DNA of 50,296 nucleotides, taken from Anaerolineales bacterium. GTDB taxonomy: Bacteria > Chloroflexota > Anaerolineae > Anaerolineales > DRMV01. Below are positions 2,757 to 23,651 of the stretch, piece by piece. The position numbers and the translations under genes are program-made. Position 1 is the stretch's first letter; the number at the start of each line of letters is the position of its first letter. The DNA lies in NCBI GenBank assembly GCA_026991215.1, contig JALXBY010000244.1, positions 1-50,296 on the forward strand, written 5' to 3'. The notes below the pieces were generated by a model, which saw only the letters and a list, made by a program, of their open reading frames with translations, searched no databases and was not told the DNA's origin.

Positions 2757-3134
2757 ATGTCTGCCATGGAAAAGCCCCCCGTTCGACCGCCCAGGCGTAT
2801 TGGCATCGTGGGGCCGTGCGGTGCGGGGAAGAGCACCCTGGCCCGGGCCCTGCAGGCTTTGGGGTTCCAGGCCAAGGCCATTGCCCAGGAGCATTCCCAC
2901 GTGCCCGACATGTGGCAGCGCCTCACCCGGCCCGACCTGCTGGTCTACCTGGACGCCTCTTTCGAGACCTGCACCCAACGTAAGGGCCTGCACTGGACGC
3001 GGGCCGACTATGAAGAAGAACTGCGCCGGCTGGCCCACGCCCGGTCCCACGCAGATATCTACATCCCCACCGACGACCTCAGCCCGGAAGAGGTGCTGCA
3101 ACGGGTTCTGGAGGCGCTGTTTTCCAGTTGTTGA
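2757..3134 (+). CDS. Small P-loop NTPase / nucleotide-kinase-like protein
   Basis: 125-aa ORF with Walker A IGIVGPCGAGKSTLARAL and a hhhhD-like LLVYLD. Its GC is high like the housekeeping flanks. Confidence 0.75.
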   Translation: MSAMEKPPVRPPRRIGIVGPCGAGKSTLARALQALGFQAKAIAQEHSHVPDMWQRLTRPDLLVYLDASFETCTQRKGLHWTRADYEEELRRLAHARSHADIYIPTDDLSPEEVLQRVLEALFSSC

Positions 3135-3144
3135 CCGTGGTCTG

Positions 3145-4260
3145 CTAACCCTGGAAGGTATCTGCCCGGAACCCAAAAATTGTCACAGCCCGTTGCAAGC
3201 GGGGTTCCCATACCGCAATGTGGGGGATGCGTCGCGCCAGGGCCTGTGCATACGTGCCGTAGACCCAGCGTGGCAGTCGGCCCCAAAGAATGACGGAACG
3301 CATGGCTTTGGGCCAGTTGGGTTCAGGTAAAGTGGTGGGCATGAGAAAGCCGCGAAGTTGGATTCGCAGAAGCCACCGTCCCGCGTCCACGGGCTCCATG
3401 TGAAGGAGCACGTCCTTTGTGCCTGAAGTATCCACCTGGGGCAGGTGGACCCATCCCAAATGGGCATCAAAGACCGCCATGGGAGCGGGCGCCACATGCG
3501 CCGCTATGGCCGCGGCCAGCCAGGTCGGTCCGCGACCGTACAGGGATACAGGTCCACGCGGAATCACTCGAAGCAGACGAGGGAGGTCCTCTGGAGTCCA
3601 CCAGGCAGGTAAAGGTTTCCCCAGGGTGCGGGCCAGCTCCCGCTCACTAAGGAACGGATACGGTGCGGTTTTCCGATGCAGGGCTTCCAGGTCTTCCTCC
3701 CGGAGGCGGAACAAGGCAAACACCCGGCGGGCTAAAGCCTCAAAGGTCTTTCCCAGGCGGGGATGGTGCCGGTCCAGCCCGGTAATGGTTCCGGTGAGAT
3801 ACGGATGCGTCCCCGCGAGGACATCCTCCCCCTGAAGGCGGCTTTCCAGGACAGCAAGGAGGGAGAGGTCCGTGGCGCGAATGTGGGCCATCCAATATTC
3901 CCGTTCCTCGGGTGTACGGTAAAGCAAGATACCGTGGGTACATGCCCGAAGGATTTCCCACTGTTCACCCCGTGGCCGTCCGCCCATATCCACCAGGAGC
4001 GGGGTGTGCCGGTGCTGGAGAAGCGTCACCATGCGTCGTACCAGGTCCGGCGTATAACGGCCTTTGGCCGCAAGACGCAGGGAGAGCACCTTATTTCGGG
4101 GCCCTTCATAAAACCAGTTCCCTTCGCCATCCGGCGCGGTGCGCAACAGATAATGGGCGAGACCCGCCCGATATAAACGCCGGCTGAGGTGATACGCCAA
4201 TACGGACTTGCCACTATGCGGTGGCCCCATGACCAATAAGGCGGGGAGATTTAAGCCCAT
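3145..4260 (-). CDS. csx3: P-loop NTPase fused to a C-terminal Csx3-like (cA4 ring-nuclease family) domain, preceded by a second partial Csx3-like motif
   Basis: 371 aa. It has Walker A GPPHSGKS (res 12-19) and Walker-B-like PLLVDMGG. Res 285-371 (LLHMEPVDAGRWLLRIQL...VILWGRLPRWVYGTYAQALARRIPHIAVWEPRLQRAVTI) matches, from memory, A. fulgidus Csx3 (...VVISGRGPIWLHCFLAHKYHHTPFVAVYDPRLGAVVV). A second copy of the motif, YGRGPTWLAAAIAAHVAPAPMAVFDAHLGWV, lies at res 241-271. Confidence 0.65.
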   Translation of the reverse strand: MGLNLPALLVMGPPHSGKSVLAYHLSRRLYRAGLAHYLLRTAPDGEGNWFYEGPRNKVLSLRLAAKGRYTPDLVRRMVTLLQHRHTPLLVDMGGRPRGEQWEILRACTHGILLYRTPEEREYWMAHIRATDLSLLAVLESRLQGEDVLAGTHPYLTGTITGLDRHHPRLGKTFEALARRVFALFRLREEDLEALHRKTAPYPFLSERELARTLGKPLPAWWTPEDLPRLLRVIPRGPVSLYGRGPTWLAAAIAAHVAPAPMAVFDAHLGWVHLPQVDTSGTKDVLLHMEPVDAGRWLLRIQLRGFLMPTTLPEPNWPKAMRSVILWGRLPRWVYGTYAQALARRIPHIAVWEPRLQRAVTIFGFRADTFQG

Positions 4261-4332
4261 GGCACCCCCTTTCCCTATATCGGCATGGTATCATTCAAAC
4301 ACATCATTTTGAGCCTCCGAAGAGGAAAAAAC
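4261..4332. promoter_or_regulatory. 72-nt divergent control region between the csx3-fusion gene and the CARF-LuxR / cas operon
   Basis: This is the only sizeable non-coding gap in the CRISPR island. It contains TGGTATCAT (extended -10-like, 4286-4294, + strand) and the direct repeat ATCATT-N7-ATCATT (4290-4308). GAGGA (4322-4326) lies 6 nt before the ATG at 4333. Confidence 0.35.
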
Positions 4333-5253
4333 ATGCTGGGGGAAAGGCTTCTGGCCTCCTTGGGAGGCCAACCTCAAATTTTGACTTTTACGTTGGATGC
4401 TTTGCTAGCACGGGGAATCCGCCCGCAAGTGGTGGAAGTTGTCTTTCCGGGAGGAAACCCCGTCTACCAAGCCGCTTTTCGTCGGCTTCAACGTGAATTT
4501 ACGCGCTATCAAGCATACCAATCCATTCCTTTGCAGGCCTGTAGCCTTACAGACCGAGACGGCCATCCTCTTCCGGATTTACTTTCTGATTTGCATTTAG
4601 ATGAAGCCTGGCAACAGGTGCGTGACCGCGTACGTACGCTGAAAGCCGAAGGTTGGCGTTTGCATTTTAGCATTACCGGCGGCCGCCGTGCGCTGGGCCT
4701 GATGCTCTACGCCGCGGCCATGACCTATGGCTCGCCCCAGGATAAGGTCTGGCACATCTACACCCCGCCCGAATGGCTGGCCCAGGTCAAGGATGGCGCG
4801 CGCATGCACCTGCCCCAGGGCACGGTGCGGTTGTTGGAGATTCCCTTCGTGCCCTGGACCGCGTATTTCCCCGGTTTGCGAAGCCTGTTGGAGATGTCCC
4901 CGGAAGTGTTGCGTCGGTTGATGGGGGAAGGGCTGGATGAGGAAACCCAACGCCGTTGTGCCCGGGTGTGGGCGCGGCTGACCCCTCGCCAGAAAGATGC
5001 GCTACGGGCCTTGGCCACCACGGAAACCCGGGCCGAAGCCGCGCGGGCCATGGGCGTCGACCTGGATACCCTGGATTCCCATCGCAAGGCCATTCTGCGG
5101 GTGTGCCGCGCGGCCTGGCCGGAGGCCAGGGTGGATTTGCGCTTTGTGCGCCGGGTCTTCCGGCTGTGGCTGACCGCCACTAACGGCCTCCCCACTTTGC
5201 GGGGAGATTTTCAGGAGGAGATGGGGATGGAAACTACGAATTTTTCCTCATAA
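4333..5253 (+). CDS. CARF (NE0113/TIGR02584-like) domain fused to a LuxR/FixJ-type HTH: predicted cOA-responsive transcription regulator
   Basis: The start is placed at the internal ATG with an SD; the track start at 4285 has none. N-terminal SLGGQPQILTFTLDAL and SITGGRRALG are the two hallmark CARF/NE0113 motifs. Res 216-257 (LTPRQKDALRALATTETRAEAARAMGVDLDTLDSHRKAILRV) fits the LuxR-type HTH pattern. Confidence 0.7.
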   Translation: MLGERLLASLGGQPQILTFTLDALLARGIRPQVVEVVFPGGNPVYQAAFRRLQREFTRYQAYQSIPLQACSLTDRDGHPLPDLLSDLHLDEAWQQVRDRVRTLKAEGWRLHFSITGGRRALGLMLYAAAMTYGSPQDKVWHIYTPPEWLAQVKDGARMHLPQGTVRLLEIPFVPWTAYFPGLRSLLEMSPEVLRRLMGEGLDEETQRRCARVWARLTPRQKDALRALATTETRAEAARAMGVDLDTLDSHRKAILRVCRAAWPEARVDLRFVRRVFRLWLTATNGLPTLRGDFQEEMGMETTNFSS

Positions 5254-5281
5254 AGTCATTCTTGGTCAGGGAGGTTTTGCC

Positions 5282-5449
5282 ATGGCGGATGAATGGCTGG
5301 AGCACCTTTTGGAAAGGCCTTCGTCCACGGCCCGCCAGATGCTGGAACAACGCACCGGCATGCAGGTTCTCTCCCTCAGCGACCTGCCGGCCTTTCTGGA
5401 AGCAGCCATGCGGGCGTGGGTGGAGGCGCAAGCCGAGCCCACATCCTGA
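5282..5449 (+). CDS. Hypothetical 55-aa acidic protein directly upstream of cas10
   Basis: My own translation gives MADEWLEHLLERPSSTARQMLEQRTGMQVLSLSDLPAFLEAAMRAWVEAQAEPTS*. GGGAGG (5269-5274) lies 7 nt before the ATG, and the stop is 15 nt before the cas10 ATG. It is below the 60-aa cutoff of the ORF track. Confidence 0.45.
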   Translation: MADEWLEHLLERPSSTARQMLEQRTGMQVLSLSDLPAFLEAAMRAWVEAQAEPTS

Positions 5450-5464
5450 ACTTTAGGAGGTTGT

Positions 5465-7090
5465 ATGAGCCAGAAAAACGTACTTCTCCAAGGCGATGTA
5501 GACGCCATCAAATCCTATGTATTTGAGGCTTCCGGGCTACCCCAAATTCGCGGTGGCAGTCAACGGCTCATCAAATGTGAGCAAGAAGTGGAAAAGTTGG
5601 TAGAACAGCGGGGAGGGCGCACGATTTATTGCGGAGGAGGTGGTTTCCTGTTTGAAATACCTGCGGACGAAGCAGAAAATCTCAAACGCGAAATCGAGCG
5701 CATCTACCTAAAGTACACCCAAGTGGCTACTGTGACGGTAGTGTATGAAGACGCTCCTGAGCTCCCTCTTCCCGAGCCAAACATCACGGATGGCTGGGCA
5801 GGTCGTCTGGTCAAGGCCCATCAGGAAGCCCAGAGCGCCGGCGAATTTGCCCGTCGCACCGCGTTCCTGGCCGCGAGGTTGCGGGAGGCAAAACAACAAA
5901 AGCAGGTCGTACCCTTTATTGAAGCCTTCCCCTTCGGTAAGCGGTGTGAGATTTGCGGTAAGCGGGTGGCGGAAAGGAAGGTGACTTACACCCAAAGCGG
6001 GATGTTTGAAACGAAACATGTGTGTCGTGTGTGTTACCGGAGACATCGCACAGGTCGTATATGCCGCCACCGTGGTTTTGAGCGATTCTTAGAGAAGAGG
6101 AGATATAACTTACCATCCACTCCTCCCAAGGATGTGAACGAACTGGCTGCAAGTGCACGACGCCCTTATGTGGCCTTTCTCTATGCTGATGGGAACAACG
6201 TCGGCGACCTGTTACAGAAGGTCAAAGACGAGAATGAATATGCAGTCCTATCCAAGGCCCTAACAGAGGGCACAGAACAAGCCCTGTACGAGGCCCTTTG
6301 GGAGGTCTGCCAAAAGCCACTGGAACAAGAGAAAGCCTGGCCCTTTGAAATCCTCAACATCGGCGGTGATGACGTTACCCTGCTTATACAAGCCGGGTAT
6401 GCCTGGGATGTGGCCGTGGCGTTTCTGGGGAAATTCGAGCAATATGTACAAGAGAAGGTGAAGGATAATCTCGGTTATTGGCCCGCGGCTTGGCCCATGC
6501 CTATTACCGCTTCGGTGGGTATTGCTATCGCCGATGCCAAACACCCCGTGTGGTATCTGGAAGCGCTGGCCACCGACCTGCTCAAGAAAGCCAAAGTCAA
6601 GGCCCGGCAGGCGGAAACAAGCGCCATCAACTTCCTGTGGTTGCCCAACGCCATTGCCATTACCAGAGCCGAAGCCGTCACCGAGCAATACAAAGTGGGC
6701 GATTTTCATCTGACCGCACGGCCTTTTACCCTGGCGCAAGCGAGAAAGATGCAAGATGTGGTCAATATCCTCGCTTCATGGCCCCGCAGCCTGCGCCATC
6801 GGTGGGGCAAGGCCCTGGAACGCGGGCGTTGGACCGCTCTCTCCCAAATCCTTTATGACCTGGCCCGACGGCGGAACGGTGAGCATCGTGAAAAGGTGGG
6901 AAGATTCATCGATGCCTTAGAAGACTTGGCCACGACGTTTCAGGCTGAGCGGGAAGACGAGGCCCCCATTTATCTCTGGTGGCCCACCGAGGAAAATGGG
7001 CGCCGCATCTGGAAAACGCCTTTGCTGGACGCCTTGGAACTGGCCGAACTTCGCGCCATGCGGTCGGATATTCAAGAGGAGGGCGACTAA
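5465..7090 (+). CDS. cas10: Cas10 large subunit, compact (541 aa), no HD domain, intact GGDD cyclase motif
   Basis: AGGAGG lies upstream. The N-terminus starts directly with the Palm1-type motif LLQGDVDAIKSYVF...IRGGSQRL. A treble-clef Zn finger is present (C161-x2-C164...C187-x2-C190; nt 5945-6034). The Palm2 motif is ILNIGGDDVTLL, with GGDD at aa 300-303 (nt 6362-6373). Confidence 0.88.
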   Translation: MSQKNVLLQGDVDAIKSYVFEASGLPQIRGGSQRLIKCEQEVEKLVEQRGGRTIYCGGGGFLFEIPADEAENLKREIERIYLKYTQVATVTVVYEDAPELPLPEPNITDGWAGRLVKAHQEAQSAGEFARRTAFLAARLREAKQQKQVVPFIEAFPFGKRCEICGKRVAERKVTYTQSGMFETKHVCRVCYRRHRTGRICRHRGFERFLEKRRYNLPSTPPKDVNELAASARRPYVAFLYADGNNVGDLLQKVKDENEYAVLSKALTEGTEQALYEALWEVCQKPLEQEKAWPFEILNIGGDDVTLLIQAGYAWDVAVAFLGKFEQYVQEKVKDNLGYWPAAWPMPITASVGIAIADAKHPVWYLEALATDLLKKAKVKARQAETSAINFLWLPNAIAITRAEAVTEQYKVGDFHLTARPFTLAQARKMQDVVNILASWPRSLRHRWGKALERGRWTALSQILYDLARRRNGEHREKVGRFIDALEDLATTFQAEREDEAPIYLWWPTEENGRRIWKTPLLDALELAELRAMRSDIQEEGD

Positions 7091-7750
7091 ATGGTGCATC
7101 TCAAAATCGCCTTGCGTCTCAAATGGCGAACCGCGTTCCACACCACAGGCAACCGCTGGCGATGGGGCGCGGACAAGGCCCTGGTCCAGCGATATGACGA
7201 CACCTATGTACTCCCTGCCACCTCCCTCAAAGGTGCCCTGCGAGACCAGGCTGAACAATTGCTACGTGGCCATGTGCACATCTGTAATGCACCCGACCCC
7301 GGTCAAATGTGCTCGGATCTTGAGAACTTGTGCTTAGTCTGTCGGGTCTTTGGCAACCCCCGGCGGCCTTCTCTCTTACGATTTCAGGACGGGGTTTTGA
7401 GGAGAAAGAATATAGGCGAGATAGAGACCCAAATCCGCGCCGGTGTAGCCATCAGCCGACGCCGTCGTGCAGCGGTTCCCCAGCGGTTGTATTTTGTGGA
7501 AACCACCGTGGCAGGCCCCGTGGAAGCCCAGACAGTTATCGAAGGCTTCTTTCCTTCTCAACAAGAGGCCGAAGAGGCCGCGGCCCTGGTAGTTTTGGCG
7601 GCCCGGATGCTCCCGGCGTTGGGCGCGGGGCGTACCCGCGGCCTGGGTTGGCTGGAAGCCATTGAGACCGAATGCACGATGGACGGCCAGCCGTTAGCCG
7701 GGACGGCGCTGGAACGCTATTGGAACCGGTGGTTAGGAGGCGGCCAATGA
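7091..7750 (+). CDS. cas7: Cas7-family RAMP (Csm3/Cmr4-like)
   Basis: The ATG immediately follows the cas10 TAA. Motifs present are GADKALV...LPATSLKGALRD, CRVFG and the glycine-rich loop GAGRTRGLGW. Confidence 0.85.
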   Translation: MVHLKIALRLKWRTAFHTTGNRWRWGADKALVQRYDDTYVLPATSLKGALRDQAEQLLRGHVHICNAPDPGQMCSDLENLCLVCRVFGNPRRPSLLRFQDGVLRRKNIGEIETQIRAGVAISRRRRAAVPQRLYFVETTVAGPVEAQTVIEGFFPSQQEAEEAAALVVLAARMLPALGAGRTRGLGWLEAIETECTMDGQPLAGTALERYWNRWLGGGQ

Positions 7751-8985
7751 AGCCGATATGGTTGAAAATTACCCCCGAGGAGCCCCTGGTGCTGGGTTCG
7801 GTGCGGCCCGATGCCCAATTTCTGACCACCCGCGCCTACATTCCCGGCCGCCTGTTGCGGGGTGCCTGGGCCGAGTGGCTCAAAACACAAGGCGAGGAAG
7901 ATGAGGGCATTCTCGCTCAAGTCAAAAAACTGCGAATCTGGAATTTCTACCCCGCGGTGGATGATGGCCAGTTATTGTACACGTTACCCCTCCCCCTCAC
8001 GGCCATGACGTGCAAGCACGAATCGGGCTTCCAGACCGCCTTCCTGTCTAAGAACAAAGGGCACGGGGTGGTAGATACCTTGCTCCCCCAACTGGCCTAT
8101 CACTTGTTGCGCGAAGCCGGAGCCCAAATGACCGCCCCCTTCGCCCTTACATGTGCCCAATGTGATGGCCGGATGGAACCGGCAGAAGGCTTCTACGGCG
8201 TATATGAAGCCCATGGCAGGGTGGGTTACGAGCAATTTCGTCCTCGGTACCATGCCCAAACCAAAGTGGCCTTAAGCCGCTTCCGTCGGGCTTCCCAGTT
8301 TCAGATGCTTTACACCGTGAACGCACTCGCGCCCCAAGCCCCGGCGGTGATAACAAGCAACAAAAAGGATGAGCCCAAAAACAAGTCTGTGGTGTTCCTG
8401 GGGCGAGTGTACGGGGACCCACAAGCCGTACAAGAACTGCGGCAGGCCCTGGACCATGTAGCCATCGGCGCACTGCACACCCGAGGGTATGGGCGGGTGC
8501 ACGTTGAGGAGAGCGACCCCCCTCAATGGCCTGGCCTCAAGGAGCGGGTCGAAACCTTCAACCGCATTTTGACCGATCTCTGGCAGGACCTTAAACGCCT
8601 CGCGGCCAACCCGGACGGACTTCCGGAGAAGCCCGACGGCCTGTACTTCTCGGTGGACTTGCTTTCGCCCGGTGTGTTCGTCAACCACGGCCTGCCCGAA
8701 CTGGTTCCGGAGTTGTACATCAACGGTCGCGTCCTCCGGCCCATCTGGTGGGCGACTCGACCGGATATGGCCAGCGGCTGGTCCACCGCGTGGGGCCTGC
8801 CCAAGCCCACCAACCTGGCCGCACGCATGGGGAGCGTCTACGTCTACCGCTGGGACGGTAGCATGGACGACCTGCTTCCCGCACTGCAAGCCCTGGAAGC
8901 CGAAGGCCTGGGCCTGCGCCGAGACGAGGGCTTCGGCGAAATCTTGGTGTGTCATCCCTTTCATCAGGAGGTAGAAGAGCGATGA
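7747..8985 (+). CDS. csx10: Csx10-like Cas5-family RAMP (type III-D)
   Basis: The start is taken at the ATGA overlap with the upstream stop (MKPIWLKITPEEPLVLGS...YIPGRLLRGAW). G-rich loops HTRGYGRV and RRDEGFGEILV are present. Its 412-aa size and its position after cas10-cas7 match csx10 in III-D loci. Confidence 0.7.
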   Translation: MKPIWLKITPEEPLVLGSVRPDAQFLTTRAYIPGRLLRGAWAEWLKTQGEEDEGILAQVKKLRIWNFYPAVDDGQLLYTLPLPLTAMTCKHESGFQTAFLSKNKGHGVVDTLLPQLAYHLLREAGAQMTAPFALTCAQCDGRMEPAEGFYGVYEAHGRVGYEQFRPRYHAQTKVALSRFRRASQFQMLYTVNALAPQAPAVITSNKKDEPKNKSVVFLGRVYGDPQAVQELRQALDHVAIGALHTRGYGRVHVEESDPPQWPGLKERVETFNRILTDLWQDLKRLAANPDGLPEKPDGLYFSVDLLSPGVFVNHGLPELVPELYINGRVLRPIWWATRPDMASGWSTAWGLPKPTNLAARMGSVYVYRWDGSMDDLLPALQALEAEGLGLRRDEGFGEILVCHPFHQEVEER

Positions 8986-9392
8986 AGAAGTTAAATTCGA
9001 GAACCCGTCAGGCACTCGCGACGAAAGAGGACGAGTTGGTGCAACAGGCCCGCGAAGTGGCGAAGGCATTATGGGAGTCCTTAAACGAAAAACAGCGGAA
9101 AGACGGTAAGGTGCGCCAACTGCGCAACATCCTGGAAGTCGCCAAGAGCACCGACTCATGGAAGGCTTTGGCCTTGTTTGTCCGATACCAGGCTGCACGC
9201 ACTACAGATAACATTCCCCGAGATTGGGCAGAGTATCTGATTGATGAGATGGAGAACTTAACGGACACTGCCAATGAGATTGCAAAACAAACCCATGATG
9301 ACCCTAAGACAATTCACCTGGAAATGGTCACCCGCGTTTTGGGCCACGCGGTGCGCTGGCATCTCTGGGATGTGAAAAGCCAGGAGGGATAA
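8982..9392 (+). CDS. cas11: Cas11 small subunit (Csm2/Cmr5-like), all-helical, 136 aa
   Basis: The ATGA overlaps the csx10 stop. The sequence is helical with a KVRQLRNILEVAK segment resembling the Csm2 (T/S)QhRKh motif. The position is canonical. Confidence 0.65.
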   Translation: MKKLNSRTRQALATKEDELVQQAREVAKALWESLNEKQRKDGKVRQLRNILEVAKSTDSWKALALFVRYQAARTTDNIPRDWAEYLIDEMENLTDTANEIAKQTHDDPKTIHLEMVTRVLGHAVRWHLWDVKSQEG

Positions 9393-9395
9393 GCC

Positions 9396-10193
9396 ATGTT
9401 TGACACCTTTAACAACCGTGTGGTGCTGCGGGCCACTTTGGAAATGCAAACTGCCCTTTCCGTGGGTAGCCGCATTTCGCTGGAGCCCGTGGGCACGGAC
9501 CTACCCGTTATGAAAGGGCCGGATGGTCTTCCGTTCATCCCCGGCTCGTCCATCAAGGGCACGGTACGGGCGCTGACCGAGCGCATTTTGCGCAGCCTTC
9601 CCAACGGGGAGGAAATTGGTCTATGGGCCTGTGACCCCTTCGCAGACCCGTGTGTGGATCGGAACCAGGCCCGCATCTGGCTGCAGGATGAAGCAACTGA
9701 GCATCTGGTTTGGGATGAAGCCTGCACCGCGTGCCGCATCTTTGGTTCCCCCTGGCTGGCCAGCCGGGTGTCCTTTAAGGATGCCTACCTGGAGAACTCC
9801 GAAGACCTGCCTGTGGTCACCCAGATACGCGATGGCGTGGGCATTGACCGGGACCTGGGCGCGGCCCGCCAGGGCATCAAGTACGACTTTGAGGTGGTTG
9901 TGCCAGGGGCCAGGTTCGGCATTGAGATTCTGACCGAAAACCTGGACGATTGGGAGTTGGGCCTTCTCCTTTCGGTTTTGCGGTTCTGGCAAGAAGGCCA
10001 GTTGCCCTTGGGCGGCAAAGTGACTCGCGGCCCCGGCTGGGGAAAACTGAAGGACCTGCGCCTGGAGCGAATTGACCAAACCAATTTGGTGAACTACCTG
10101 ACAGGCGGCCAACCGGCCCAGGACAGCCCGGAGAAATACCTTCAGGCCTTCCGCGACTACCTGAGCCAGCAACTGAACCAAGGGGAGGGATGA
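9396..10193 (+). CDS. cas7: Cas7-family RAMP (Csm3-like, probable target-RNA-cleaving subunit)
   Basis: Motifs present are VGTDLPVMKGPDGLPFIPGSSIKGTVR (Asp loop plus the GSSxKG motif), CRIFGSPW and LGGKVTRGPGWGKL. Confidence 0.88.
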   Translation: MFDTFNNRVVLRATLEMQTALSVGSRISLEPVGTDLPVMKGPDGLPFIPGSSIKGTVRALTERILRSLPNGEEIGLWACDPFADPCVDRNQARIWLQDEATEHLVWDEACTACRIFGSPWLASRVSFKDAYLENSEDLPVVTQIRDGVGIDRDLGAARQGIKYDFEVVVPGARFGIEILTENLDDWELGLLLSVLRFWQEGQLPLGGKVTRGPGWGKLKDLRLERIDQTNLVNYLTGGQPAQDSPEKYLQAFRDYLSQQLNQGEG

Positions 10194-10196
10194 CCC

Positions 10197-11078
10197 ATGC
10201 ATAAGACCCGATACAACGCCCTGCACTTGACCGTGCGCATTCGTCCTAAAGGCCCCTTGCTGATTAAGGCCGGCGGTATCTCCGCCAACCCCGCATTGCC
10301 GGATATGCAATTCGTGCGCACGTTTCACCCTGACCGAGGCGAAACAGTCTACATTCCCGGTTCATCCCTCAAAGGGGTTGTGCGGGGATTTGTGGAGAAG
10401 GCCCTGCGCACCTTTGATGCCCGAGACAGTTGGCGTTGGGCCTGTCCAACATTCCCCGATGAAGCGGAGAGTTGTGCCCGACGCTTGCAGAATGAGACGG
10501 ATACAGCATCGGTGTACCGCCAATCCTGCGGTGCCTGCCGCATCTTCGGCCATACCCGGCTGCGGGGCCGGCTTTCCTTCACCGATTTCTTCCCCGTGGA
10601 AGAAGTGCGCACCGAAATCCGCTACGGTGTGGCCATCTCGCGGCTGACCCACGCGGTGGCCCATGGGCCTTTTGAAATGGAAGTAGCCGTCTCGGGGACG
10701 TTTGAAGGGCACCTGGTGCTGGAGAACTTTGAAATCTGGCAGTTGGGACTGGTGGCTACGGCCCTGGCCGCTATGAATCAAGGCCTGGTGAAAGTGGGCT
10801 TTGGCAAAAACCGGGGATTCGGTGAGGTAGAAGTGGAGGTGCGCGAGGCCTGGGTGGACGAAGTTGTTGTGAACTATCACCCCGAGCGCCTCCGGGGCCT
10901 GAGGGCTTTTGTGGACAACGCAACGGCGCAGGCCTATGGTTTGTTCCCACCGGCCGATTTGGACCTGCAAAACGGCCCTGAATTCACCCGTGAAGAACCG
11001 TTGGGCGTGTACACGCGGCGGGTATACGGCACGCAGGGCTGGAATGAATTAGCCCGGCTTGCCATCCAGGCACTGTGA
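10197..11078 (+). CDS. cas7: Cas7-family RAMP (Csm3/Csm5-like)
   Basis: Motifs present are LPDMQFVR...VYIPGSSLKGVVRG, CGACRIFGHTRLRG and GFGKNRGFGEVEV. Confidence 0.88.
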   Translation: MHKTRYNALHLTVRIRPKGPLLIKAGGISANPALPDMQFVRTFHPDRGETVYIPGSSLKGVVRGFVEKALRTFDARDSWRWACPTFPDEAESCARRLQNETDTASVYRQSCGACRIFGHTRLRGRLSFTDFFPVEEVRTEIRYGVAISRLTHAVAHGPFEMEVAVSGTFEGHLVLENFEIWQLGLVATALAAMNQGLVKVGFGKNRGFGEVEVEVREAWVDEVVVNYHPERLRGLRAFVDNATAQAYGLFPPADLDLQNGPEFTREEPLGVYTRRVYGTQGWNELARLAIQAL

Positions 11079-11089
11079 GGGTTGGAGCC

Positions 11090-11533
11090 ATGCAGGGATT
11101 CGTCTACTACCTGACAGGCACCAGCGAAGAGCTGCAACGCCTTGCCCAAACCCATCTGGGCGAGGCTGTCTGGCATTGGGTCGCCGACGCTGCCCGTCTC
11201 ACTGTGGGAGAAGGCTACCCTGCAGACTGGAAAGAGCAGGGGGCGGTTTTCAATACCCAAGGCGAATTGTGTTGGCGCGCGTTGGGTAATGAGCAGTACG
11301 AGGCCCTCTTGCTCACCACAAAGGCCTTGCCCAACCACAAAGTGCTGCCCGGCGAATGGACGGTAGAGGAACAGACGCTTTATCTGCAGGACTTGCGAGA
11401 AGCCCGGGTTTTGCCTCAATTCGCCCAGTATCCCACAGGAAAGTCAACAGGCAAGATTCGGATCCGGCTCTACCGTCGCAATGGTGTGCCCACCTTTGTG
11501 AGTTTGTGTGAATTCCTTGAGGAGGAAGCATGA
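11090..11533 (+). CDS. csx19: Csx19 (all1473)-like type III-D associated protein
   Basis: A protein of 147-152 aa with no RAMP motifs sits exactly where all1473/csx19 sits in III-D operons, between the third cas7 and the last RAMP. The start is either the ATG at 11090 (GAGG 7 nt upstream) or the GTG at 11075 overlapping the upstream stop. The family assignment rests on position and size only. Confidence 0.5.
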   Translation: MQGFVYYLTGTSEELQRLAQTHLGEAVWHWVADAARLTVGEGYPADWKEQGAVFNTQGELCWRALGNEQYEALLLTTKALPNHKVLPGEWTVEEQTLYLQDLREARVLPQFAQYPTGKSTGKIRIRLYRRNGVPTFVSLCEFLEEEA

Positions 11534-12537
11534 TGGCACGGCGTTCTGAACCTGAACCCAAGCCCTTCTTCTGGGTCTTGCTGGACGAGTCTCCGCAGAA
11601 AACCCGGCCGGTGTTCCACGAAAAATTTGAGGGCTGGACAGGCCGTTTGGTTTGGGAGATTGAGGTGCTCTCGGACTACCTTTATGTGGGAAGCGGGAAC
11701 CTGGACTTGGTGCGGTTGCCCGATGGCCGCGAACAGGCCCGCTATGCCTTTGCCCGCCGGGATGGGCAGTTGGTGATACCCGCGACCAGTATCAAGGGCG
11801 CGGTGCGGGCAGTGTTTGAGGCCATCACAAACTCGTGCGTTTCTCAACGAAACCGTCGGGAGCGGCCCCTTTCTACTGCTCATATGGCATGCGGTCTGGT
11901 TCGCAAAGGGAAAGAGGAGAAGGCCCGACTCTGCCCGGCCTGCCGCGTTTTTGGCACAACGGGCTACCGCGGCCGGGTGCATTTCTCCGACGCGGTCCCG
12001 GTAGGCGAGGTGCGCACCGAGACCATCAAAATCGCTGACCTGTGGCCCCCGCGCCAAGTCCGTAAGGCGCGTAAGTTTTATCAAACCAAGGCTTTCCAGA
12101 AGCAAGACCTGCACCCTCGCAAGAACACCCGTTTTCTGGAAGTTGTCCCCAAAGGAAGCCGTTTCCGTACCACCCTGTACTTTGAAAACCTGAGTGGTGC
12201 AGAAATGGGCGCACTGATGAGGGCGCTGGGCTTGGGCCTCCATTCCAGCAAGCCCAACACGATTGTTTACGCCTTCCCCCTCAAATTGGGCGGGGCCAAG
12301 CCGCGGTGTTTAGGAAGCGTCCGCTTTCATCCCCGTGGTGTATTCATTCAAACATCCCCGTCTACGGACGCAGATGATCTTTGGCAGCGGTTCCTTCAAT
12401 CTGCTCCAGGGGGGGTGAAAAACTTGCTCCTCCAGTGGCTCCAATCCGAGGCATTGTTGGACGAAGAGGCCTGGCACCAATTCCGTGCCGAAGCCCAACC
12501 CCAGACGGATGAAGCCTGCCCGCGGGAGGTGTACTGA
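11530..12537 (+). CDS. cas7: Large Cas7-like RAMP (TIGR03986-like, III-D terminal RAMP)
   Basis: The ATGA overlaps the upstream stop. Motifs present are LVIPATSIKGAVRAVFE, CPACRVFGTTGYRG and KLGGAKPRCLGSVRF. Confidence 0.8.
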   Translation: MMARRSEPEPKPFFWVLLDESPQKTRPVFHEKFEGWTGRLVWEIEVLSDYLYVGSGNLDLVRLPDGREQARYAFARRDGQLVIPATSIKGAVRAVFEAITNSCVSQRNRRERPLSTAHMACGLVRKGKEEKARLCPACRVFGTTGYRGRVHFSDAVPVGEVRTETIKIADLWPPRQVRKARKFYQTKAFQKQDLHPRKNTRFLEVVPKGSRFRTTLYFENLSGAEMGALMRALGLGLHSSKPNTIVYAFPLKLGGAKPRCLGSVRFHPRGVFIQTSPSTDADDLWQRFLQSAPGGVKNLLLQWLQSEALLDEEAWHQFRAEAQPQTDEACPREVY

Positions 12538-12872
12538 TGAGCCGCGAGGATGAACTGGTGACCCTGGCGGAACAAATCGCCGATGGCCTGCCGGGGGTCA
12601 CGCGCAACGAGTGGATGAAGTGGGTGCAGATTCTTCAGGCCTATCAAGCCCAATATCGCGATGCGCTTCAACGAGCCATCCATTACGCACAACGTTTATC
12701 CAAAGACCCCACAATGCGGCCGGCCATACAGCGGGCCCACCGCTTGATTGCGCAAACCATGCAGCGCTATGCCCGGCGCGTTGCCTCTTTGCCTCGTACC
12801 GAACAACAGCGCCTGTTCGGTTATGTGGCCTGGAGCCTGGTTGTTCAGGGTAAACAGGGGCGGAGGCGATGA
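12537..12872 (+). CDS. Hypothetical 111-aa helical protein, operon-coupled to the effector genes
   Basis: Its ATG shares one nt with the upstream TGA. The sequence looks all-helical (MSREDELVTLAEQIADGL...QRLFGYVAWSLVVQGK). I recognise no motif. Confidence 0.6.
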   Translation: MSREDELVTLAEQIADGLPGVTRNEWMKWVQILQAYQAQYRDALQRAIHYAQRLSKDPTMRPAIQRAHRLIAQTMQRYARRVASLPRTEQQRLFGYVAWSLVVQGKQGRRR

Positions 12873-12875
12873 GGA

Positions 12876-13595
12876 ATGCCACGATTTGTTTTCGATACAA
12901 ACGTACTCATCAATTATATTCGCTATGATGATCAAGAGGTGCATGATGCTTTAACAGTAGCCGCGGATTTGGGGGAAATTCTTATCTCACAGATATCTGT
13001 TTTAGAAATGTGGGCACCAGTGAAATGGAAGATCAAGGAAGAATCTCCTAACTTGGTGCCTTTATGGATTCGGAAATTAGAGGAAGGTGAGGTTCCTGCA
13101 GGAATGCAGGAGGTGCTTTTGCATGAATTAAGCGAATATCAACAACCTCTTCCAAACCAGTTTTTTGTAGATACTCTTCGAAAAGGTCGAAGATGGTCTA
13201 TTTCGGACGAAAATAAACAGCTGATTTCAGTTGTTGAATACACAGGCAATTCTCTTATCCTAATGTCTCCGGATATACGCCGCAGTCAAGTGGAACAGGA
13301 AATATCTACGCTAAAACATATTTGTGAGACGTTCGACGCTCAAATTATCCCCGTCTCAGAACGCGCCCAATATTATGCAGAGCTTATAGTTCAGCACTAT
13401 AGGGATACCCTGGGCAGAAACACCATTACGGATAGCCTCATTATAGCAACAGGACTCGAACATGACGCATGGTTGGTGACTTATGATAATAATTGGGAAA
13501 AAGTTAAGAAAGATATGAAAAACAGATCTTTGCCTTTACCTGAAATGAAAGTAATTGATCCTGCACGCGTGGCTCACGGGGAGGTGCATTCATGA
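12876..13595 (+). CDS. PIN-domain (VapC-like) nuclease with a roughly 100-aa insertion; AT-rich gene
   Basis: PIN acidic positions are FVFDTNVLI (D7), SVLEMW (E44), TITDSLIIATG and LVTYDNNW. At 239 aa it is far longer than the roughly 130 aa of a canonical VapC. Hand-counted GC on 60-nt samples is about 37-38%, against 53-58% in neighbouring cas genes. Confidence 0.75.
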   Translation: MPRFVFDTNVLINYIRYDDQEVHDALTVAADLGEILISQISVLEMWAPVKWKIKEESPNLVPLWIRKLEEGEVPAGMQEVLLHELSEYQQPLPNQFFVDTLRKGRRWSISDENKQLISVVEYTGNSLILMSPDIRRSQVEQEISTLKHICETFDAQIIPVSERAQYYAELIVQHYRDTLGRNTITDSLIIATGLEHDAWLVTYDNNWEKVKKDMKNRSLPLPEMKVIDPARVAHGEVHS

Positions 13596-14608
13596 CCAAA
13601 GTCAAAAACATCCTTCTGGCCACCCTGGGTACCGCACCTGCCGTAATTACAGAAGCCGTAGATTTGTTGCGGGAAGAAGGCGTTCACATTGATGGCATCT
13701 CGCTATTCTTGACCGAAGATTCCGATGTGCGGGATAGCTTTTCTTTGCTCGCCCAACACCTTCCTGCCCACGATGGAATTGTGTGGATTTCACCTATTCA
13801 GATCGGCGTGTACACCGATATCGACAGCACACAGGCTGCGGCCGAATTTCTCCAACTGGCCAGCCAATACCTCAAGACCCTACGAGATGCAGGCCATCGT
13901 GTGTATGTATCCATTGCAGGCGGGCGTAAAGCGATGTCTGCGCTTCTCGCGCTGGCCGTGCAATTTTTCGGCGCCGAGCGACTTTTCCATATTTGGGTTC
14001 CACCCTGGTTGGAAGAAGAAGGTGAAATCCATGAACTGCGCAAGTGGAAGCATTTACCTGAGGAATTGACCCGAAAACTGCATCCTACCTTGAACGCCGA
14101 GCCAACTGACCGCCCGCGTTTGGTTACTCTTCCTGTTATCGGACTCTTTCCTTTTCTTGAAGATATCCGCCTTGCCTTAACGGAGCAGGGCGAAGTGCCA
14201 CGCGACATTCGTCGCTTGCTCCGTGAAAACGGCCTACTTACTTCCCAGGGCGAGGTCACCGAACTGGGGCGGCTCATTAGCCAGATTCTTGAAAGCGTTG
14301 AGGGGTTGCCACCGGCCCGCCAGGAGGAATGCAAAGTCCATATTGCTCCGCATCATTACAAGGACCGACTGGAGAAATTTGCCTGGCAACTGTGTGGGCG
14401 TTTTCCCTTTATCACGGAAATTCAAAGCGGAGAGTGGCGAAGCGGTGAAGGCAAGATCAAAACCGAGCCTCCAAATCGTATCCGAATCTTTGAGCCCTTA
14501 GGCACCGACTTCCCCTTGCAATTGATTCTGACCACGACTGCCAAAACGTCGGGCCAATTGGAAGCTGCCCGGCGAGCGATTGAGCGATTCTTAAAAGCAC
14601 GGAGGTAA
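13592..14608 (+). CDS. CARF (NE0113/TIGR02584-like) protein with a wHTH-like linker and an unassigned C-terminal domain
   Basis: The ATGA overlaps the PIN stop. CARF motifs are LLATLGTAPAVITEAVDLL and SIAGGRKAMSALLA. Res 195-235 are HTH-like (RDIRRLLRENGLLTSQGEVTELGRLI). Res 245-338 match nothing I recognise. Confidence 0.7.
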   Translation: MTKVKNILLATLGTAPAVITEAVDLLREEGVHIDGISLFLTEDSDVRDSFSLLAQHLPAHDGIVWISPIQIGVYTDIDSTQAAAEFLQLASQYLKTLRDAGHRVYVSIAGGRKAMSALLALAVQFFGAERLFHIWVPPWLEEEGEIHELRKWKHLPEELTRKLHPTLNAEPTDRPRLVTLPVIGLFPFLEDIRLALTEQGEVPRDIRRLLRENGLLTSQGEVTELGRLISQILESVEGLPPARQEECKVHIAPHHYKDRLEKFAWQLCGRFPFITEIQSGEWRSGEGKIKTEPPNRIRIFEPLGTDFPLQLILTTTAKTSGQLEAARRAIERFLKARR

Positions 14609-14610
14609 CT

Positions 14611-15585
14611 ATGGGTGTCTATCACCTGATGGGTCTGGGGCGCTCACCAGGTGCCATTACTGGCCCTATCTCTTATCTGGCCTCCCGCTATCAGCGGTGG
14701 AACGAGGAGGACCGGGCCTTTTTCGCCCGCTCAGGGGAGGTTCGTCAACGGGAAGCAGGCGAGAAGGTGGGCGATATACAGGCCGTTGTGTTGTTTACGA
14801 CTCGGGAGATTCTCAGCGGAACCGTTCCAGCGTTTGACTATGTGGACAATCCACTTGGACGGATCGCAAAGGACCCGCGGGTGTCTGGCGGGCCGATGAA
14901 GGAGGTGCTTCGTCGGTTATTGCGCCGTGAATGGCCTGCCATCAGCGGCGGTCGTCCCGAAGGCACCGTCTTCTGGTGCGAAGTCGATCGCCGGGATATC
15001 CGCACCACCTATGAGCGAGTGATCTGGGTCGTGGCCGCGCTGGCCGGCGTCGGCGGGCAAGGAAAAGAGATGTGGGTCAACTTGACGGGAGGTAACAACG
15101 TGATCAACTTCGCCCTGGAACTGGCTGCTACCCTCTCCGGTGCTGTGGCGCGGCTTTATTACGTGCAGGCGGAAAACCCGGACGCTGAGAAATGTGTGCG
15201 CTTTACAGCGGAGGACGGATACTGGGTGGAATTACCGGTTATGCCCTTGGCATTGAGCCCTTTGACACGCGCTATCATTGATTTGCTTGCGCAAAAAGGC
15301 CCTATATCTTTGGGCGATCTGTACAGCATCTTGAGGAACAAGTACTGGAACTTAAGCTATGGACTCACATCGGAGGAAGTTCTGCGGGAGGCCTATCTGG
15401 CTCCAATGTGGAAACAAGGCCTTATCGTTGAGACACTTGAAGGCTATAAAATTGGCCCACAATGGGAATTGGTGCAACCTTACCAAGAATTATGGGAAGA
15501 AGCCCTCAGATGCAATGAGACCATCGAACAACTGGCCCAAACAGAGCTTTGGCTCGAACGCGAAATCATTACATGGGAGCGCTAA
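14611..15585 (+). CDS. CARF domain protein with C-terminal winged-helix (Csa3-like architecture)
   Basis: CARF-type motifs are the N-terminal LMGLGRSPGAITGPISYL and NLTGGNNVINFALELA. The C-terminal LTRAIIDLLAQKGPISLGDLYSILR...MWKQGLIVETLEGYKIGP looks like a wHTH. Confidence 0.6.
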   Translation: MGVYHLMGLGRSPGAITGPISYLASRYQRWNEEDRAFFARSGEVRQREAGEKVGDIQAVVLFTTREILSGTVPAFDYVDNPLGRIAKDPRVSGGPMKEVLRRLLRREWPAISGGRPEGTVFWCEVDRRDIRTTYERVIWVVAALAGVGGQGKEMWVNLTGGNNVINFALELAATLSGAVARLYYVQAENPDAEKCVRFTAEDGYWVELPVMPLALSPLTRAIIDLLAQKGPISLGDLYSILRNKYWNLSYGLTSEEVLREAYLAPMWKQGLIVETLEGYKIGPQWELVQPYQELWEEALRCNETIEQLAQTELWLEREIITWER

Positions 15586-15588
15586 CCC

Positions 15589-15987
15589 ATGCTCATCCTC
15601 AACTTTGCCCACCCCCTGACCGACGAACACCTGGCGCAAATCGAGAAACTCACAGGCCAGAAGCCCGAGCGGGTGGTAGTCATCAACAGCCAGATTGACC
15701 CTCAGCAGCCCCTGGCACCACAAGTCTCGGCCATGGCCGATGCTGCGGGATTGACCCCTGAAGAGTGGCAAACCCTTCCCCTCCTCATCAACCCGCCCGC
15801 GCTCAACTTTAGCGCGGTCGCGCTCATCGCGGAATTGCACGGACGCATGGGCTACTTCCCGCCCTGCATCCGCATGCGGCCCGTGGTCGGCCCAGACGGC
15901 CAGCGTGTGGTTCCGCCCCGCTTCGAGGTGGCGGAGATTTTGAACCTGCAGGCCATTCGGGATGAGGCGCGCAGGTCCCGTGCATAG
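15589..15987 (+). CDS. Small CRISPR-associated protein, possibly Csx15 family (candidate ring nuclease)
   Basis: This 132-aa ORF is the last gene of the operon. From memory, MLILNFAHPLTDEHLAQIEKLTG...LIAELHGRMGYFP...FEVAEILNLQAIRDEAR resembles the cyanobacterial Csx15-type proteins that accompany type III loci. This has not been verified. Confidence 0.4.
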   Translation: MLILNFAHPLTDEHLAQIEKLTGQKPERVVVINSQIDPQQPLAPQVSAMADAAGLTPEEWQTLPLLINPPALNFSAVALIAELHGRMGYFPPCIRMRPVVGPDGQRVVPPRFEVAEILNLQAIRDEARRSRA

Positions 15988-16014
15988 CCAGCCGCAGAAG
16001 GCAGTGCGCGCCCA

Positions 16015-20607: not shown

Positions 20608-20653
20608 GCGTTCAGCCTCCTCCACGATGGGGTGCCTTCGATTGTACTTGATG

Positions 20654-20716
20654 TGGTTGGTGGTCGATGGTCGATGGTCGTTGGTCGTTGGTCGGTGGTC
20701 GGTGGTCGTTCGTCGG
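20654..20716. repeat. Heptanucleotide tandem repeat, 9 units (TGGTTGG TGGTCGA x2 TGGTCGT x2 TGGTCGG x2 TGGTCGT TCGTCGG)
   Basis: Read directly and period exactly 7. It lies in the divergent tdk / pfpI-like intergenic region. Confidence 0.9.
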
Positions 20717-21377: not shown

Positions 21378-21387
21378 CGGCGGGCGG

Positions 21388-21478: not shown

Positions 21479-21495
21479 CGAAGGAGGAATCTCCA

Positions 21496-22842: not shown

Positions 22843-22863
22843 AGGCCCTTCAGGACCTATGGG

Positions 22864-23627: not shown

Positions 23628-23651
23628 TCGATGAAAATTCCGGTTCGAGGC

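What the first reader, a model, noticed from the sequence alone, without database searches (positions are those of the whole stretch)
4333..15585. All three CARF sensors of this locus carry DNA-binding-type outputs and none carries a recognisable nuclease
The Cas10 keeps GGDD, so cyclic-oligoadenylate synthesis is expected. The three CARF proteins are CARF + LuxR-type HTH (4333-5253), CARF + HTH-like linker + unknown domain (13592-14608) and CARF + winged helix (14611-15585). I see no HEPN, PD-(D/E)xK, RelE, TIR, protease or transmembrane effector fused to any CARF. The only nuclease-like accessory is a stand-alone PIN protein (12876-13595) with no sensor domain. This suggests a type III system whose second messenger mainly rewires transcription, possibly including its own operon, the divergent ring-nuclease gene and the embedded PIN toxin, rather than directly switching on a collateral RNase.
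Basis: inference. Interest (0 to 1): 0.7.

Follow-up and report, generated by a model that had tools for sequence, protein, structure and literature searches.

The report
Type III-D CRISPR locus, unusual sensors
This is a type III-D CRISPR locus with three signal-sensing CARF proteins: two look like signal-controlled gene regulators, while the third (Csx14) carries an uncharacterised domain that sits in the toxin position of another phage-defence system, so the locus is probably not "transcription only".

Summary
The observation largely holds. 4333-5253, 13592-14608 and 14611-15585 are CARF proteins. No Pfam, NCBIfam, PADLOC, PDB-sequence or Foldseek search finds a known nuclease fold in any of them.

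- **Two Csa3-clade sensors.** 4333-5253 (LuxR/GerE HTH confirmed in homologs) and 14611-15585 (winged helix only weakly supported) are credible cA4-responsive regulators.
- **Effector slot.** In related loci the slot of 14611-15585 alternates with Can2-like, Csm6 or Csx1 nucleases.
- **Csx14 (13592-14608).** It has a Crn1/Cad1-like CARF with ring-nuclease motifs. Its C-terminal 95 residues are homologous (hhalign 97%) to the "DUF2103-like" effector domain of Menshen NsnC and of CARF7 proteins in III-B loci. Csx14 is the only accessory gene present in all 19 related loci.
- **PIN.** Its catalytic residues are intact. It lies between p111 and csx14 in 11 of 19 loci, with 2 further remnants, and is read through into csx14 in one metagenomic protein.
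Csx15 (15589-15987), a further cA4 binder.

The whole window is a perfect palindrome, so only 25,148 nt are unique; this is almost certainly an assembly artefact.

Most likely this is a cA4 system with a toxin-type output (Csx14) plus transcriptional regulators. None of this has been tested experimentally.

The parts
3145..4260 (-). AAA(P-loop)-Csx3 fusion. The C-terminal Csx3/Crn3 domain is a cA4 ring-nuclease family. Divergent from the CARF-LuxR gene.
   Evidence: Pfam Cas_csx3 2.1e-11 at aa 304-362; PADLOC C3a67 'AAA-Csx3' 9.9e-80 over the full length.
4333..5253 (+). Csa3-clade CARF plus C-terminal LuxR/GerE-type HTH (HTH about 4978-5103). Ligand-site motifs LGGQPQ and GGRR, with no Crn1-type Ser or Lys.
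   Evidence: GerE in most homologs; motifs invariant in 121 sequences; PADLOC CARF3--CARF 6e-73.
5465..7090 (+). Cas10, 541 aa, no HD domain, cyclase GGDD at 6362-6373.
   Evidence: Pfam Cas10-Cmr2_palm2 1.1e-20; PADLOC Cas10 3.8e-73; GGDD in 17 of 17 related loci.
7091..12537 (+). Type III-D backbone: RAMP 7091-7750; Cas5/Cmr3-like 7672-8985; Csm2 (III-D small subunit) 8949-9392; Cas7 9396-10193; Cas7 10197-11078; Csx19 11075-11533; Cas7 11530-12537.
   Evidence: Pfam RAMPs and Cas_Cmr3; PADLOC Csm2 III-D 5.3e-34 and Csx19 1.6e-38; same order in 17 loci.
12537..12872 (+). p111, a conserved 111-aa protein of unknown function. It is always the gene between the last Cas7 and PIN/csx14.
   Evidence: No significant family hit; only a sub-cutoff Pfam DUF3847 match (E 7.7e-4, 19.9 bits against a cutoff of 40), nothing in NCBIfam or PADLOC. 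Detected by tblastn in 18 of the 19 loci that cover the position and recovered by translating the gap in the remaining locus, L023.
12876..13595 (+). VapC-like PIN protein with D7, E44, D186 and D203 intact and an insertion of about 90 aa (13023-13295). Its stop overlaps the csx14 start (ATGA).
   Evidence: Pfam PIN 1.9e-11; PADLOC C3a166 1.1e-10; alignment of 12 PINs; read-through fusion P0069.
13592..14608 (+). Csx14: CARF5-clade CARF (13592-14131; motifs LGTAP and GGRK), wHTH-like helices (14144-14293), and a DUF2103-like domain (14318-14605; conserved H254, H255, W282, G285, T315, T316, A317, E324, E331).
14611..15585 (+). Csa3/HFX_2341-like CARF (14611-15231; motifs GLGRSPG and TGGNNV) plus a putative winged helix and C-terminal helix (15232-15582). 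It is the most conserved protein of the locus.
   Evidence: the HFX_2341 to Csa3a link comes from PMC11434293.
15589..15987 (+). Csx15, a CARF-superfamily cA4 ring nuclease or sponge.
   Evidence: NCBIfam NF040560 9.2e-49, 165 bits against a cutoff of 35; PADLOC Csx15 4.3e-39; function from PMC13148439.

Best explanation
This is an HD-less subtype III-D (III-D1-like) CRISPR-Cas locus that most likely signals with cyclic tetra-adenylate (cA4) and has two kinds of output.

1. **Csx14** is the one accessory gene kept in every related locus. Proposed mechanism: it senses cA4 with a Crn1/Cad1-type CARF dimer that probably also degrades cA4 slowly. It passes the signal through a wHTH-like linker to a C-terminal DUF2103-like domain. 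That domain is an uncharacterised module with a new or unmatched fold, used elsewhere as a toxin/effector module. Its biochemical activity is unknown. A metal-independent RNase-like activity is my guess from the conserved His, Thr, Glu and Arg residues.
2. **Two Csa3-clade CARF-HTH proteins** add a transcriptional layer. One is CARF-LuxR, upstream of cas10. The other is the highly conserved 14611-15585 protein, which sits in the slot that holds Can2, Csm6 or Csx1 in sister loci.
3. **AAA-Csx3 and Csx15** remove or sequester cA4.
4. **The PIN** is an optional VapC-like RNase accessory, possibly controlled by Csx14.

Shown: domain identities, homologies and synteny. Inferred: cA4 as the messenger, activation of the DUF2103-like domain, and DNA binding by the HTH proteins.
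For: - **Subtype and cyclase:**
- **cA4-specific families in the locus:** Csx3/Crn3, Csx15 and a Crn1-like CARF.
- **Csx14 model:** confident, pLDDT 88.
- **Distribution of the C-terminal domain:** in 1.8 billion representatives it is found almost only at the C-terminus of Csx14-like proteins of about 335 aa. The exceptions are Cas_APE2256 (CARF7) proteins and one NsnC.
- **Homology to NsnC:** hhalign against NsnC P0408 gives Prob 97%, E 1.2e-10.
- **Context of the homologs:** P0408 lies in an NsnA(DUF262)-NsnB(AAA/DUF3696)-NsnC operon. P0406 lies directly after a cmr operon.
- **Universality of Csx14:** it follows p111 in 19 of 19 loci. It is the only intact CARF gene seen next to the operon in L004, L011 and L019.
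- **Conserved polar residues in the domain:**
- **Csa3-clade assignment of the other two sensors:**, with GerE in homologs.
- **Slot alternation with nuclease effectors:**
Against: - No enzymatic fold or family is recognised in the DUF2103-like domain. It could be a dimerisation or partner-binding module.
- Csx14 co-occurs with canonical effectors in 5 loci, and its CARF has ring-nuclease motifs. That is what a pure ring nuclease would look like, and it is the published prediction.
- In the window protein the Ser equivalent to Crn1 S11 is Ala.
- The winged helix of 14611-15585 is not verified.
- No CRISPR array, cas6 or adaptation genes lie in the window, so function in this genome is unproven.
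- No operator motif was found.
Confidence: 0.4

Rival explanations
1. The messenger acts mainly through transcription. The 14611-15585 CARF-wHTH protein is the functional replacement of the collateral nuclease, CARF-LuxR tunes the cas operon and its neighbours, and Csx14 is only a ring nuclease or regulator.
For: - Both proteins are Csa3-clade.
- The slot after csx14 holds Can2-like (L001, L005), Csm6 (L017, L018) or Csx1-Csx3 (L021) where the 14611-type gene is absent. None of these nucleases is found in the 11 loci that have an intact copy.
- 14611-15585 is the most conserved gene of the locus (67-79% identity, against 35-52% for Cas10 in the same loci).
- Csa3 binds cA4 and regulates transcription (PMC9704534).
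Against: - It does not explain the conserved DUF2103-like domain of Csx14 or the PIN.
- The wHTH is only weakly detected.
- Such high conservation is unusual for a DNA-binding regulator.
- No conserved operator was found.
- The 14611-type gene is truncated in L011 and L012 and absent in L004 and L019, while csx14 stays intact.
Confidence: 0.25
2. All local CARF proteins are regulators, ring nucleases or sponges. The real effector is encoded elsewhere in the genome (inter-locus signalling).
For: - Hoikkala et al. 2024 report 133 cyclase-positive, HD-less loci without a known effector, and these are enriched in genomes with several type III loci.
- NCBI names both NE0113-type proteins 'ring nuclease'.
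- The locus carries up to four cA4-removing families.
- There is no array and no cas6 in the window.
Against: - Sister loci keep a dedicated effector right after csx14, so this operon type normally carries its own.
- The CARF-LuxR and 14611-type ligand sites lack the Crn1 Ser/Lys signature.
- The rest of the genome could not be examined.
Confidence: 0.15
3. The PIN protein is the nuclease effector (or a crRNA-processing nuclease) and is held or released by Csx14, so the pair forms a two-gene CARF-PIN effector.
For: - The PIN stop overlaps the csx14 start.
- P0069 is an in-frame PIN-Csx14 fusion.
- A PIN lies at this exact position in 11 of 19 loci, plus 2 remnants, with D-E-D-D conserved.
- No VapB-like antitoxin is present, because p111 occurs with or without the PIN.
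- PADLOC C3a166 is annotated 'poss. crRNA proc.'.
Against: - The PIN is absent in 6 loci and decayed in the closest relative, L004, while full-length Csx14, including its C-terminal domain, is unchanged.
- The fusion is a single read-through on one 4-kb contig and may be an error.
- No interaction test was possible.
Confidence: 0.12

Closest known systems
Csa3 / HFX_2341 (Crr) CARF-wHTH transcription factors
   Same: 4333-5253 and 14611-15585 match PADLOC CARF3-clade models. Both combine an N-terminal CARF with a C-terminal HTH-type region. Csa3 binds cA4 and regulates cas genes.
   Different: The first protein carries a LuxR/GerE HTH rather than a winged helix. The second has no PDB sequence hit and is unusually conserved. 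Both sit in a bacterial III-D locus rather than an archaeal type I-A context.
Crn1 ring nucleases (Sso2081, Sis0455; large form Sso1393/Sis0811 with wHTH)
   Same: The Csx14 CARF aligns to them by sequence and by fold. It keeps GT[S]P and GGRK, which correspond to S11, R105 and K106.
   Different: Csx14 is about 335 aa and has an extra conserved 95-aa domain. The window copy has Ala at the Ser position.
Cad1 (CARF5-adenosine deaminase)
   Same: This is the best PDB match to the Csx14 CARF (E 6e-14 with the family profile). It is in the same CARF5 clade, whose CARF both senses and cleaves cA4.
   Different: The output domain differs entirely: there is no deaminase in Csx14.
Cami1 / SyCsm6 (CARF7-RelE)
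   Same: It is the last gene of a III-D operon, with a CARF, a linker and a small a/b effector domain.
   Different: The CARF clade is different (CARF5). The C-terminal domain gave no RelE/BECR match in Foldseek.
Menshen NsnC with a DUF2103-like C-terminal effector; Makarova's 'CARF7--CARF_DUF2103'
   Same: The Csx14 C-terminal domain is homologous to these domains. They share the H, W-x-x-G, TT and E...(D/E)R(Y/F) motifs.
   Different: The sensor module differs: inactive PIN plus an NsnB ATPase in Menshen, and a CARF7 domain in III-B loci. None of these proteins has a known activity.
VapC-type PIN toxins
   Same: The four acidic catalytic residues and the overall family match.
   Different: No cognate VapB is present. 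The gene is embedded in a cas operon and carries a 90-aa insertion.

Membership tests
Type III-D CRISPR-Cas effector module | Cas10 with a cyclase GGDD motif, several Cas7 RAMPs, a III-D Csm2 and Csx19 | tested here: met
Type III-D CRISPR-Cas effector module | Adjacent CRISPR array and crRNA-processing gene | tested here: not met
   No array or cas6 in the 25-kb unique sequence.
Csx14 (TIGR03642) | N-terminal domain scores above the curated cutoff, in a cas context | tested here: met
   109.1 bits against 90.35. Last gene of the operon in 19 of 19 loci.
Crn1-type ring nuclease | Catalytic Ser (S11) in the GTSP loop | tested here: not met
   The window Csx14 has A15. Among the 115 homologs aligned at this position, 85 have S, 16 have A and 11 have T.
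Crn1-type ring nuclease | R105/K106-equivalent GGRK motif | tested here: met
   R112 and K113, present in 119 of 121 sequences.
Crn1-type ring nuclease | cA4 cleavage activity | not testable with these tools
   Needs an HPLC assay.
Csa3-type CARF-HTH regulator (4333-5253) | CARF3-clade CARF plus a DNA-binding HTH | tested here: met
   PADLOC 6e-73. GerE/Sigma70_r4_2 in most homologs. The direct hit is weak.
Csa3-type CARF-HTH regulator (14611-15585) | CARF3-clade CARF | tested here: met
   PADLOC 2e-27. The motif-II alignment to Csx14 is weak.
Csa3-type CARF-HTH regulator (14611-15585) | Winged-helix DNA-binding domain | tested here: inconclusive
   Only HTH_9, HTH_20 and AsnC hits at E 0.02-0.25. 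No PDB hit.
Cami1 (CARF-RelE) | RelE/BECR fold in the C-terminal domain | tested here: not met
   Foldseek against PDB: best E 0.13, TM about 0.3, no RelE among the hits. No Pfam or PDB sequence hit.
DUF2103-like effector domain (NsnC-C / CARF7_DUF2103) | Sequence-profile homology to the domain | tested here: met
   hhalign Prob 97%, E 1.2e-10. PADLOC cross-hits. Genomic contexts checked.
DUF2103-like effector domain (NsnC-C / CARF7_DUF2103) | Toxic or enzymatic activity | not testable with these tools
   No member has been characterised in the held literature.
VapC/PIN toxin | Four conserved acidic residues | tested here: met
   D7, E44, D186 and D203. Conserved in 12 aligned PINs.
VapC/PIN toxin | Cognate upstream VapB antitoxin | tested here: not met
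   The upstream p111 is present whether or not the PIN is.
Csx15 | Score above the NCBIfam equivalog cutoff | tested here: met
   164.8 bits against 35.
Crn3/Csx3 | Csx3 domain above the Pfam cutoff | tested here: met
   43.9 bits against 21. AAA-Csx3 model matched over the full length.

The most novel reading that the evidence does not exclude
Csx14 is the missing effector of HD-less type III-D loci that are currently scored as 'effector-less' or as carrying only ring nucleases. Its DUF2103-like domain would be a new class of cA4-gated toxin with an unmatched fold, shared with CARF7 proteins of III-B loci and with the Menshen NsnC effector. In loci such as this one it would work alongside a Csa3-type regulator that has displaced the usual Can2, Csm6 or Csx1 nuclease.
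Probability: 0.35. Interest if true: 0.75.

Novelty: new variant of a known kind. Interest (0 to 1): 0.55.

Why it matters
About one in eight cyclase-positive type III loci has no known effector (133 of 1113 in Hoikkala et al. 2024). Surveys deliberately set aside CARF-HTH proteins and ring nucleases.

This locus family offers two concrete, testable candidates for what such systems do:
- a CARF protein whose output domain is also used as a toxin module by an unrelated defence system;
- a very conserved Csa3-type protein that occupies the nuclease-effector slot.

Either result would widen the known outputs of cyclic-oligoadenylate signalling. It would also give the DUF2103-like domain of Menshen its first functional handle.

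Tried and rejected
- **RelE or another nuclease fold in the Csx14 C-terminus:** rejected. Pfam on 30 members, a PDB profile search, and Foldseek against PDB and BFVD were all negative.
- **C-terminal domain as a PIN-binding module:** unlikely, because it is equally conserved in loci without a PIN.
- **p111 as a VapB antitoxin:** rejected, because it is present with or without the PIN.
- **S/A at the Crn1 Ser position versus PIN presence:** Ala occurs only in PIN-positive or remnant loci (6 of 13, against 0 of 6). My own hand hypergeometric calculation, not a tool result, gives a chance of roughly 0.06. The loci are not independent, so I did not use this.
- **Operator search:** inverted repeats and shared k-mers upstream of cas10 in five loci gave nothing convincing.
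- **Promoter and terminator scan of 3000-16200:** no more hits than in shuffled sequence.
- **55-aa ORF at 5282-5449:** not conserved in related loci.
- **PDB sequence searches:** nothing for 14611-15585 or its family, and nothing for the PIN.
- **hhalign of the 14611 family against Csx14:** only a weak motif-II alignment.
- **Makarova et al. 2020:** could not be opened.
- **745-aa ORF at 21430-23667 (-):** from its R/G/P/H-rich translation I judge it a probable antisense artefact of a high-GC gene. This is my reading and was not tested further.

Full report
**The sequence itself.** The 50,296-nt window equals its own reverse complement with zero mismatches, centred between 25148 and 25149. 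Only 25,148 nt are unique, and the locus at 3145-15987 reappears mirrored at 34310-47152. An independent 12.7-kb ENA contig (L003) carries identical genes from p111 to csx15 and then continues into ordinary housekeeping genes. The palindrome is therefore almost certainly a fold-back assembly artefact, and the locus is real. The locus has lower G+C (51-59%) than its flanks (63-68%). No CRISPR array is present. The closest genome is an Ardenticatena sp. MAG of the Chloroflexota.

**Gene content.**
- Cas10 (541 aa) has no HD domain and keeps GGDD at 6362-6373. The motif is conserved in 17 of 17 related loci.
- With III-D Csm2, Csx19, four RAMP proteins and a Cmr3-like Cas5, this is a III-D backbone with separate Cas7 genes. 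According to Hoikkala et al. 2024, that subtype almost never has an HD domain and works through signalling.
- The accessory genes are:
  - AAA-Csx3 on the opposite strand (PADLOC 9.9e-80);
  - a CARF-LuxR protein;
  - a conserved 111-aa protein (p111);
  - a PIN protein;
  - Csx14;
  - a third CARF protein;
  - Csx15 (NCBIfam 9e-49).
- Csx3/Crn3, Csx15 and Crn1-like CARFs are all cA4-specific families in the literature. cA4 is therefore the likely messenger, but this is an inference.

**Sensor 1 (4333-5253).**
- Pfam Cas_NE0113 scores 1.1e-31. PADLOC places it over its full length in a 'CARF3--CARF' model (6e-73), which is the clade of Csa3.
- The C-terminal GerE hit in this protein is below threshold (E 0.0057). 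However, the majority of 120 homologs carry precomputed GerE, often with Sigma70_r4_2. The LuxR-type HTH is confirmed at family level.
- The ligand-site motifs are invariant LGGQPQ and GGRR in 121 sequences. The Crn1 catalytic Ser and Lys are therefore absent, despite the NCBI name 'ring nuclease'.
- The gene lies directly upstream of cas10 in L006, L007 and L021, and as a fragment in L008.

**Sensor 2, Csx14 (13592-14608).**
- TIGR03642 scores above its cutoff, and PADLOC 'CARF5--CARF' gives 7.8e-144.
- The CARF matches Cad1 and the Crn1 ring nucleases Sso2081 and Sis0455 by sequence and by fold. Csa3 and Sis0811 follow further down the list, with alignments that run into the helical linker.
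- The Crn1 residues S11, R105 and K106 correspond to positions 15, 112 and 113. The family has GT[S 85 / A 16 / T 11]P and GGRK; the window copy has Ala at position 15.
- The AF2 model (pLDDT 88) shows a CARF domain, three helices with a hairpin, and a separate b-a-b-b-b-b-a domain.
- Predicted on its own (pLDDT 87.5), this last domain has no significant match in PDB (best E 0.13, TM about 0.3) or BFVD. It also has no Pfam or PDB sequence hit. It is not RelE and not any recognised nuclease.

**What the Csx14 C-terminal domain is related to.**
- A profile of the domain was searched against 1.8 billion representative proteins. It found 52 hits. Nearly all are Csx14-like proteins of about 335 aa with the domain at the C-terminus.
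- The informative exceptions are three Cas_APE2256 CARF proteins of 423-526 aa, with the domain in the middle, and P0408.
- PADLOC identifies the first group as 'CARF7--CARF_DUF2103' and P0408 as a full-length Menshen NsnC (1.8e-112). Cross-hits link all three families.
- hhalign of the Csx14 domain against P0408 gives Prob 97%, E 1.2e-10 over 75 columns.
- P0408 lies in a DUF262 - AAA/DUF3696 - NsnC operon. P0406 lies immediately after a cmr operon.
- The domain is therefore a portable output module, joined to two CARF clades and to a non-CARF sensor. It is not a DNA-binding tail.
- Conserved residues are H254/H255, W282, G285, T315/T316/A317, E324 and E331. This set is compatible with a catalytic site but does not prove one.

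**Sensor 3 (14611-15585).**
- PADLOC 'CARF3--CARF' gives 2e-27 over residues 1-243. There is a weak Pfam HFX_2341_N hit, and that family is present in about a quarter of the homologs.
- HFX_2341 is a Csa3a-like repressor according to PMC11434293.
- The C-terminal 117 residues give only weak HTH hits.
- There is no room for a large enzyme domain.
- In six of the seven related loci that carry it intact alongside other locus genes, this protein is the most conserved of the locus (67-79% identity, against 35-52% for Cas10). In L015 it ties with Csx14 and the last Cas7 at 49%.

**Synteny in 19 informative related loci**.
- csx14 always follows p111 at the end of the effector operon.
- A PIN gene sits between p111 and csx14 in 11 loci. 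It is a decayed remnant in 2 (L004, the closest relative, and L024) and is absent in 6.
- The four acidic PIN residues are conserved. The insertion after the second acidic residue varies: about 90 aa here and in L005, and a zinc ribbon in L022.
- One metagenomic protein (P0069) is a read-through PIN-Csx14 fusion.
- The gene after csx14 takes one of these forms:
  - the 14611-type protein, intact in 11 loci and truncated in L011 and L012;
  - a Can2-like CARF4-PD-(D/E)xK protein (C. aurantiacus, 1.5e-114; L005);
  - a Csm6-type CARF1-HEPN protein (L017, L018);
  - a Csx1-Csx3 fusion (L021);
  - nothing, because type I cas3 follows directly (L004, L019).
- None of these nuclease effectors is detectable in the loci that carry the 14611-type gene.

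**Reading.**
The slot alternation gives real support to the idea that a Csa3-type protein has taken the place of the collateral nuclease here.
- Csx14, however, is the only universal accessory gene. It carries ring-nuclease motifs and an effector-slot domain. In some loci it is the only intact CARF gene beside the operon.
- I therefore rank a dual-output model first: a Csx14 toxin-type output plus Csa3-type regulation, with AAA-Csx3 and Csx15 as off-switches (confidence 0.4).
- The rivals are a transcription-only model (0.25), effectors encoded in trans (0.15) and a Csx14-controlled PIN (0.12). These models overlap and are not exclusive.
- All functional statements are inference. No binding, cleavage or toxicity has been tested.

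Noticed in passing
window 1-50296 (centre 25148/25149): The whole window is a perfect palindrome, identical to its reverse complement with 0 mismatches. Every gene occurs twice in mirror image. A contig of this exact length is deposited in NCBI/ENA. This is almost certainly a fold-back assembly artefact.
   Followed up: yes
window 12537-12872: p111 is an all-helical-looking 111-aa protein with no significant family hit. tblastn detects it in 18 of the 19 related loci directly after the last Cas7, and translating the gap recovers it in the remaining locus (L023). It may be an unrecognised III-D subunit.
   Followed up: partly
window 13023-13295 (PIN aa 50-140): An insertion of about 90 aa follows the second catalytic residue of the PIN. 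It is shared with L005 and absent from most PINs at this position. L022 has a Cys-rich zinc-ribbon insertion at the same point.
   Followed up: partly
window 14611-15585 and homologs in L006-L024: This protein, annotated 'hypothetical', is the most conserved gene of the locus. For example, it shows 70% identity in L024, where Cas10 is 35% and Csx14 is 44%. That is unusual for a transcription factor.
   Followed up: partly
L004:989-1162; L024:9706-10001; L011:11003-11515; L012:11006-11518: Signs of decay in relatives. PIN remnants survive in L004 and L024. In two Thermoflexus loci the 14611-type gene is truncated to 170 aa; in L011 it abuts a type I-B cas8b (PADLOC), and L012 has a near-identical 507-aa ORF at the same position that was not scanned.
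   Followed up: partly
window 5282-5449: A 55-aa ORF with a good Shine-Dalgarno sequence lies between the CARF-LuxR gene and cas10. It is not conserved in related loci by tblastn.
   Followed up: partly
window 14531-14605 (Csx14 aa 314-338): The most conserved stretch of the DUF2103-like domain is TTA..GQLEAARRAIER. It gives weak local Pfam hits to Ribosomal_L16 in 4 of 30 members (best E 0.0059). This is probably a chance motif resemblance.
   Followed up: no
window 20653-20716, 21380-21472, 23532-23620 (mirrored at 26677-29644): There are short arrays of 7-nt repeats (TGGTCGT / ACGACCA and variants) around the gene at about 21475-22842. Their purpose is unknown.
   Followed up: no
window 3145-15987 against the flanks: The cas island has 51-59% G+C against 63-68% in the flanks, which suggests horizontal acquisition. 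No CRISPR array, cas6, cas1 or cas2 lies in the unique 25 kb.
   Followed up: no
L010:9184-10925: Three small ORFs that, by eye, look like a HEPN / nucleotidyltransferase toxin-antitoxin set are inserted between csx14 and the 14611-type gene. This was not checked with any profile.
   Followed up: no
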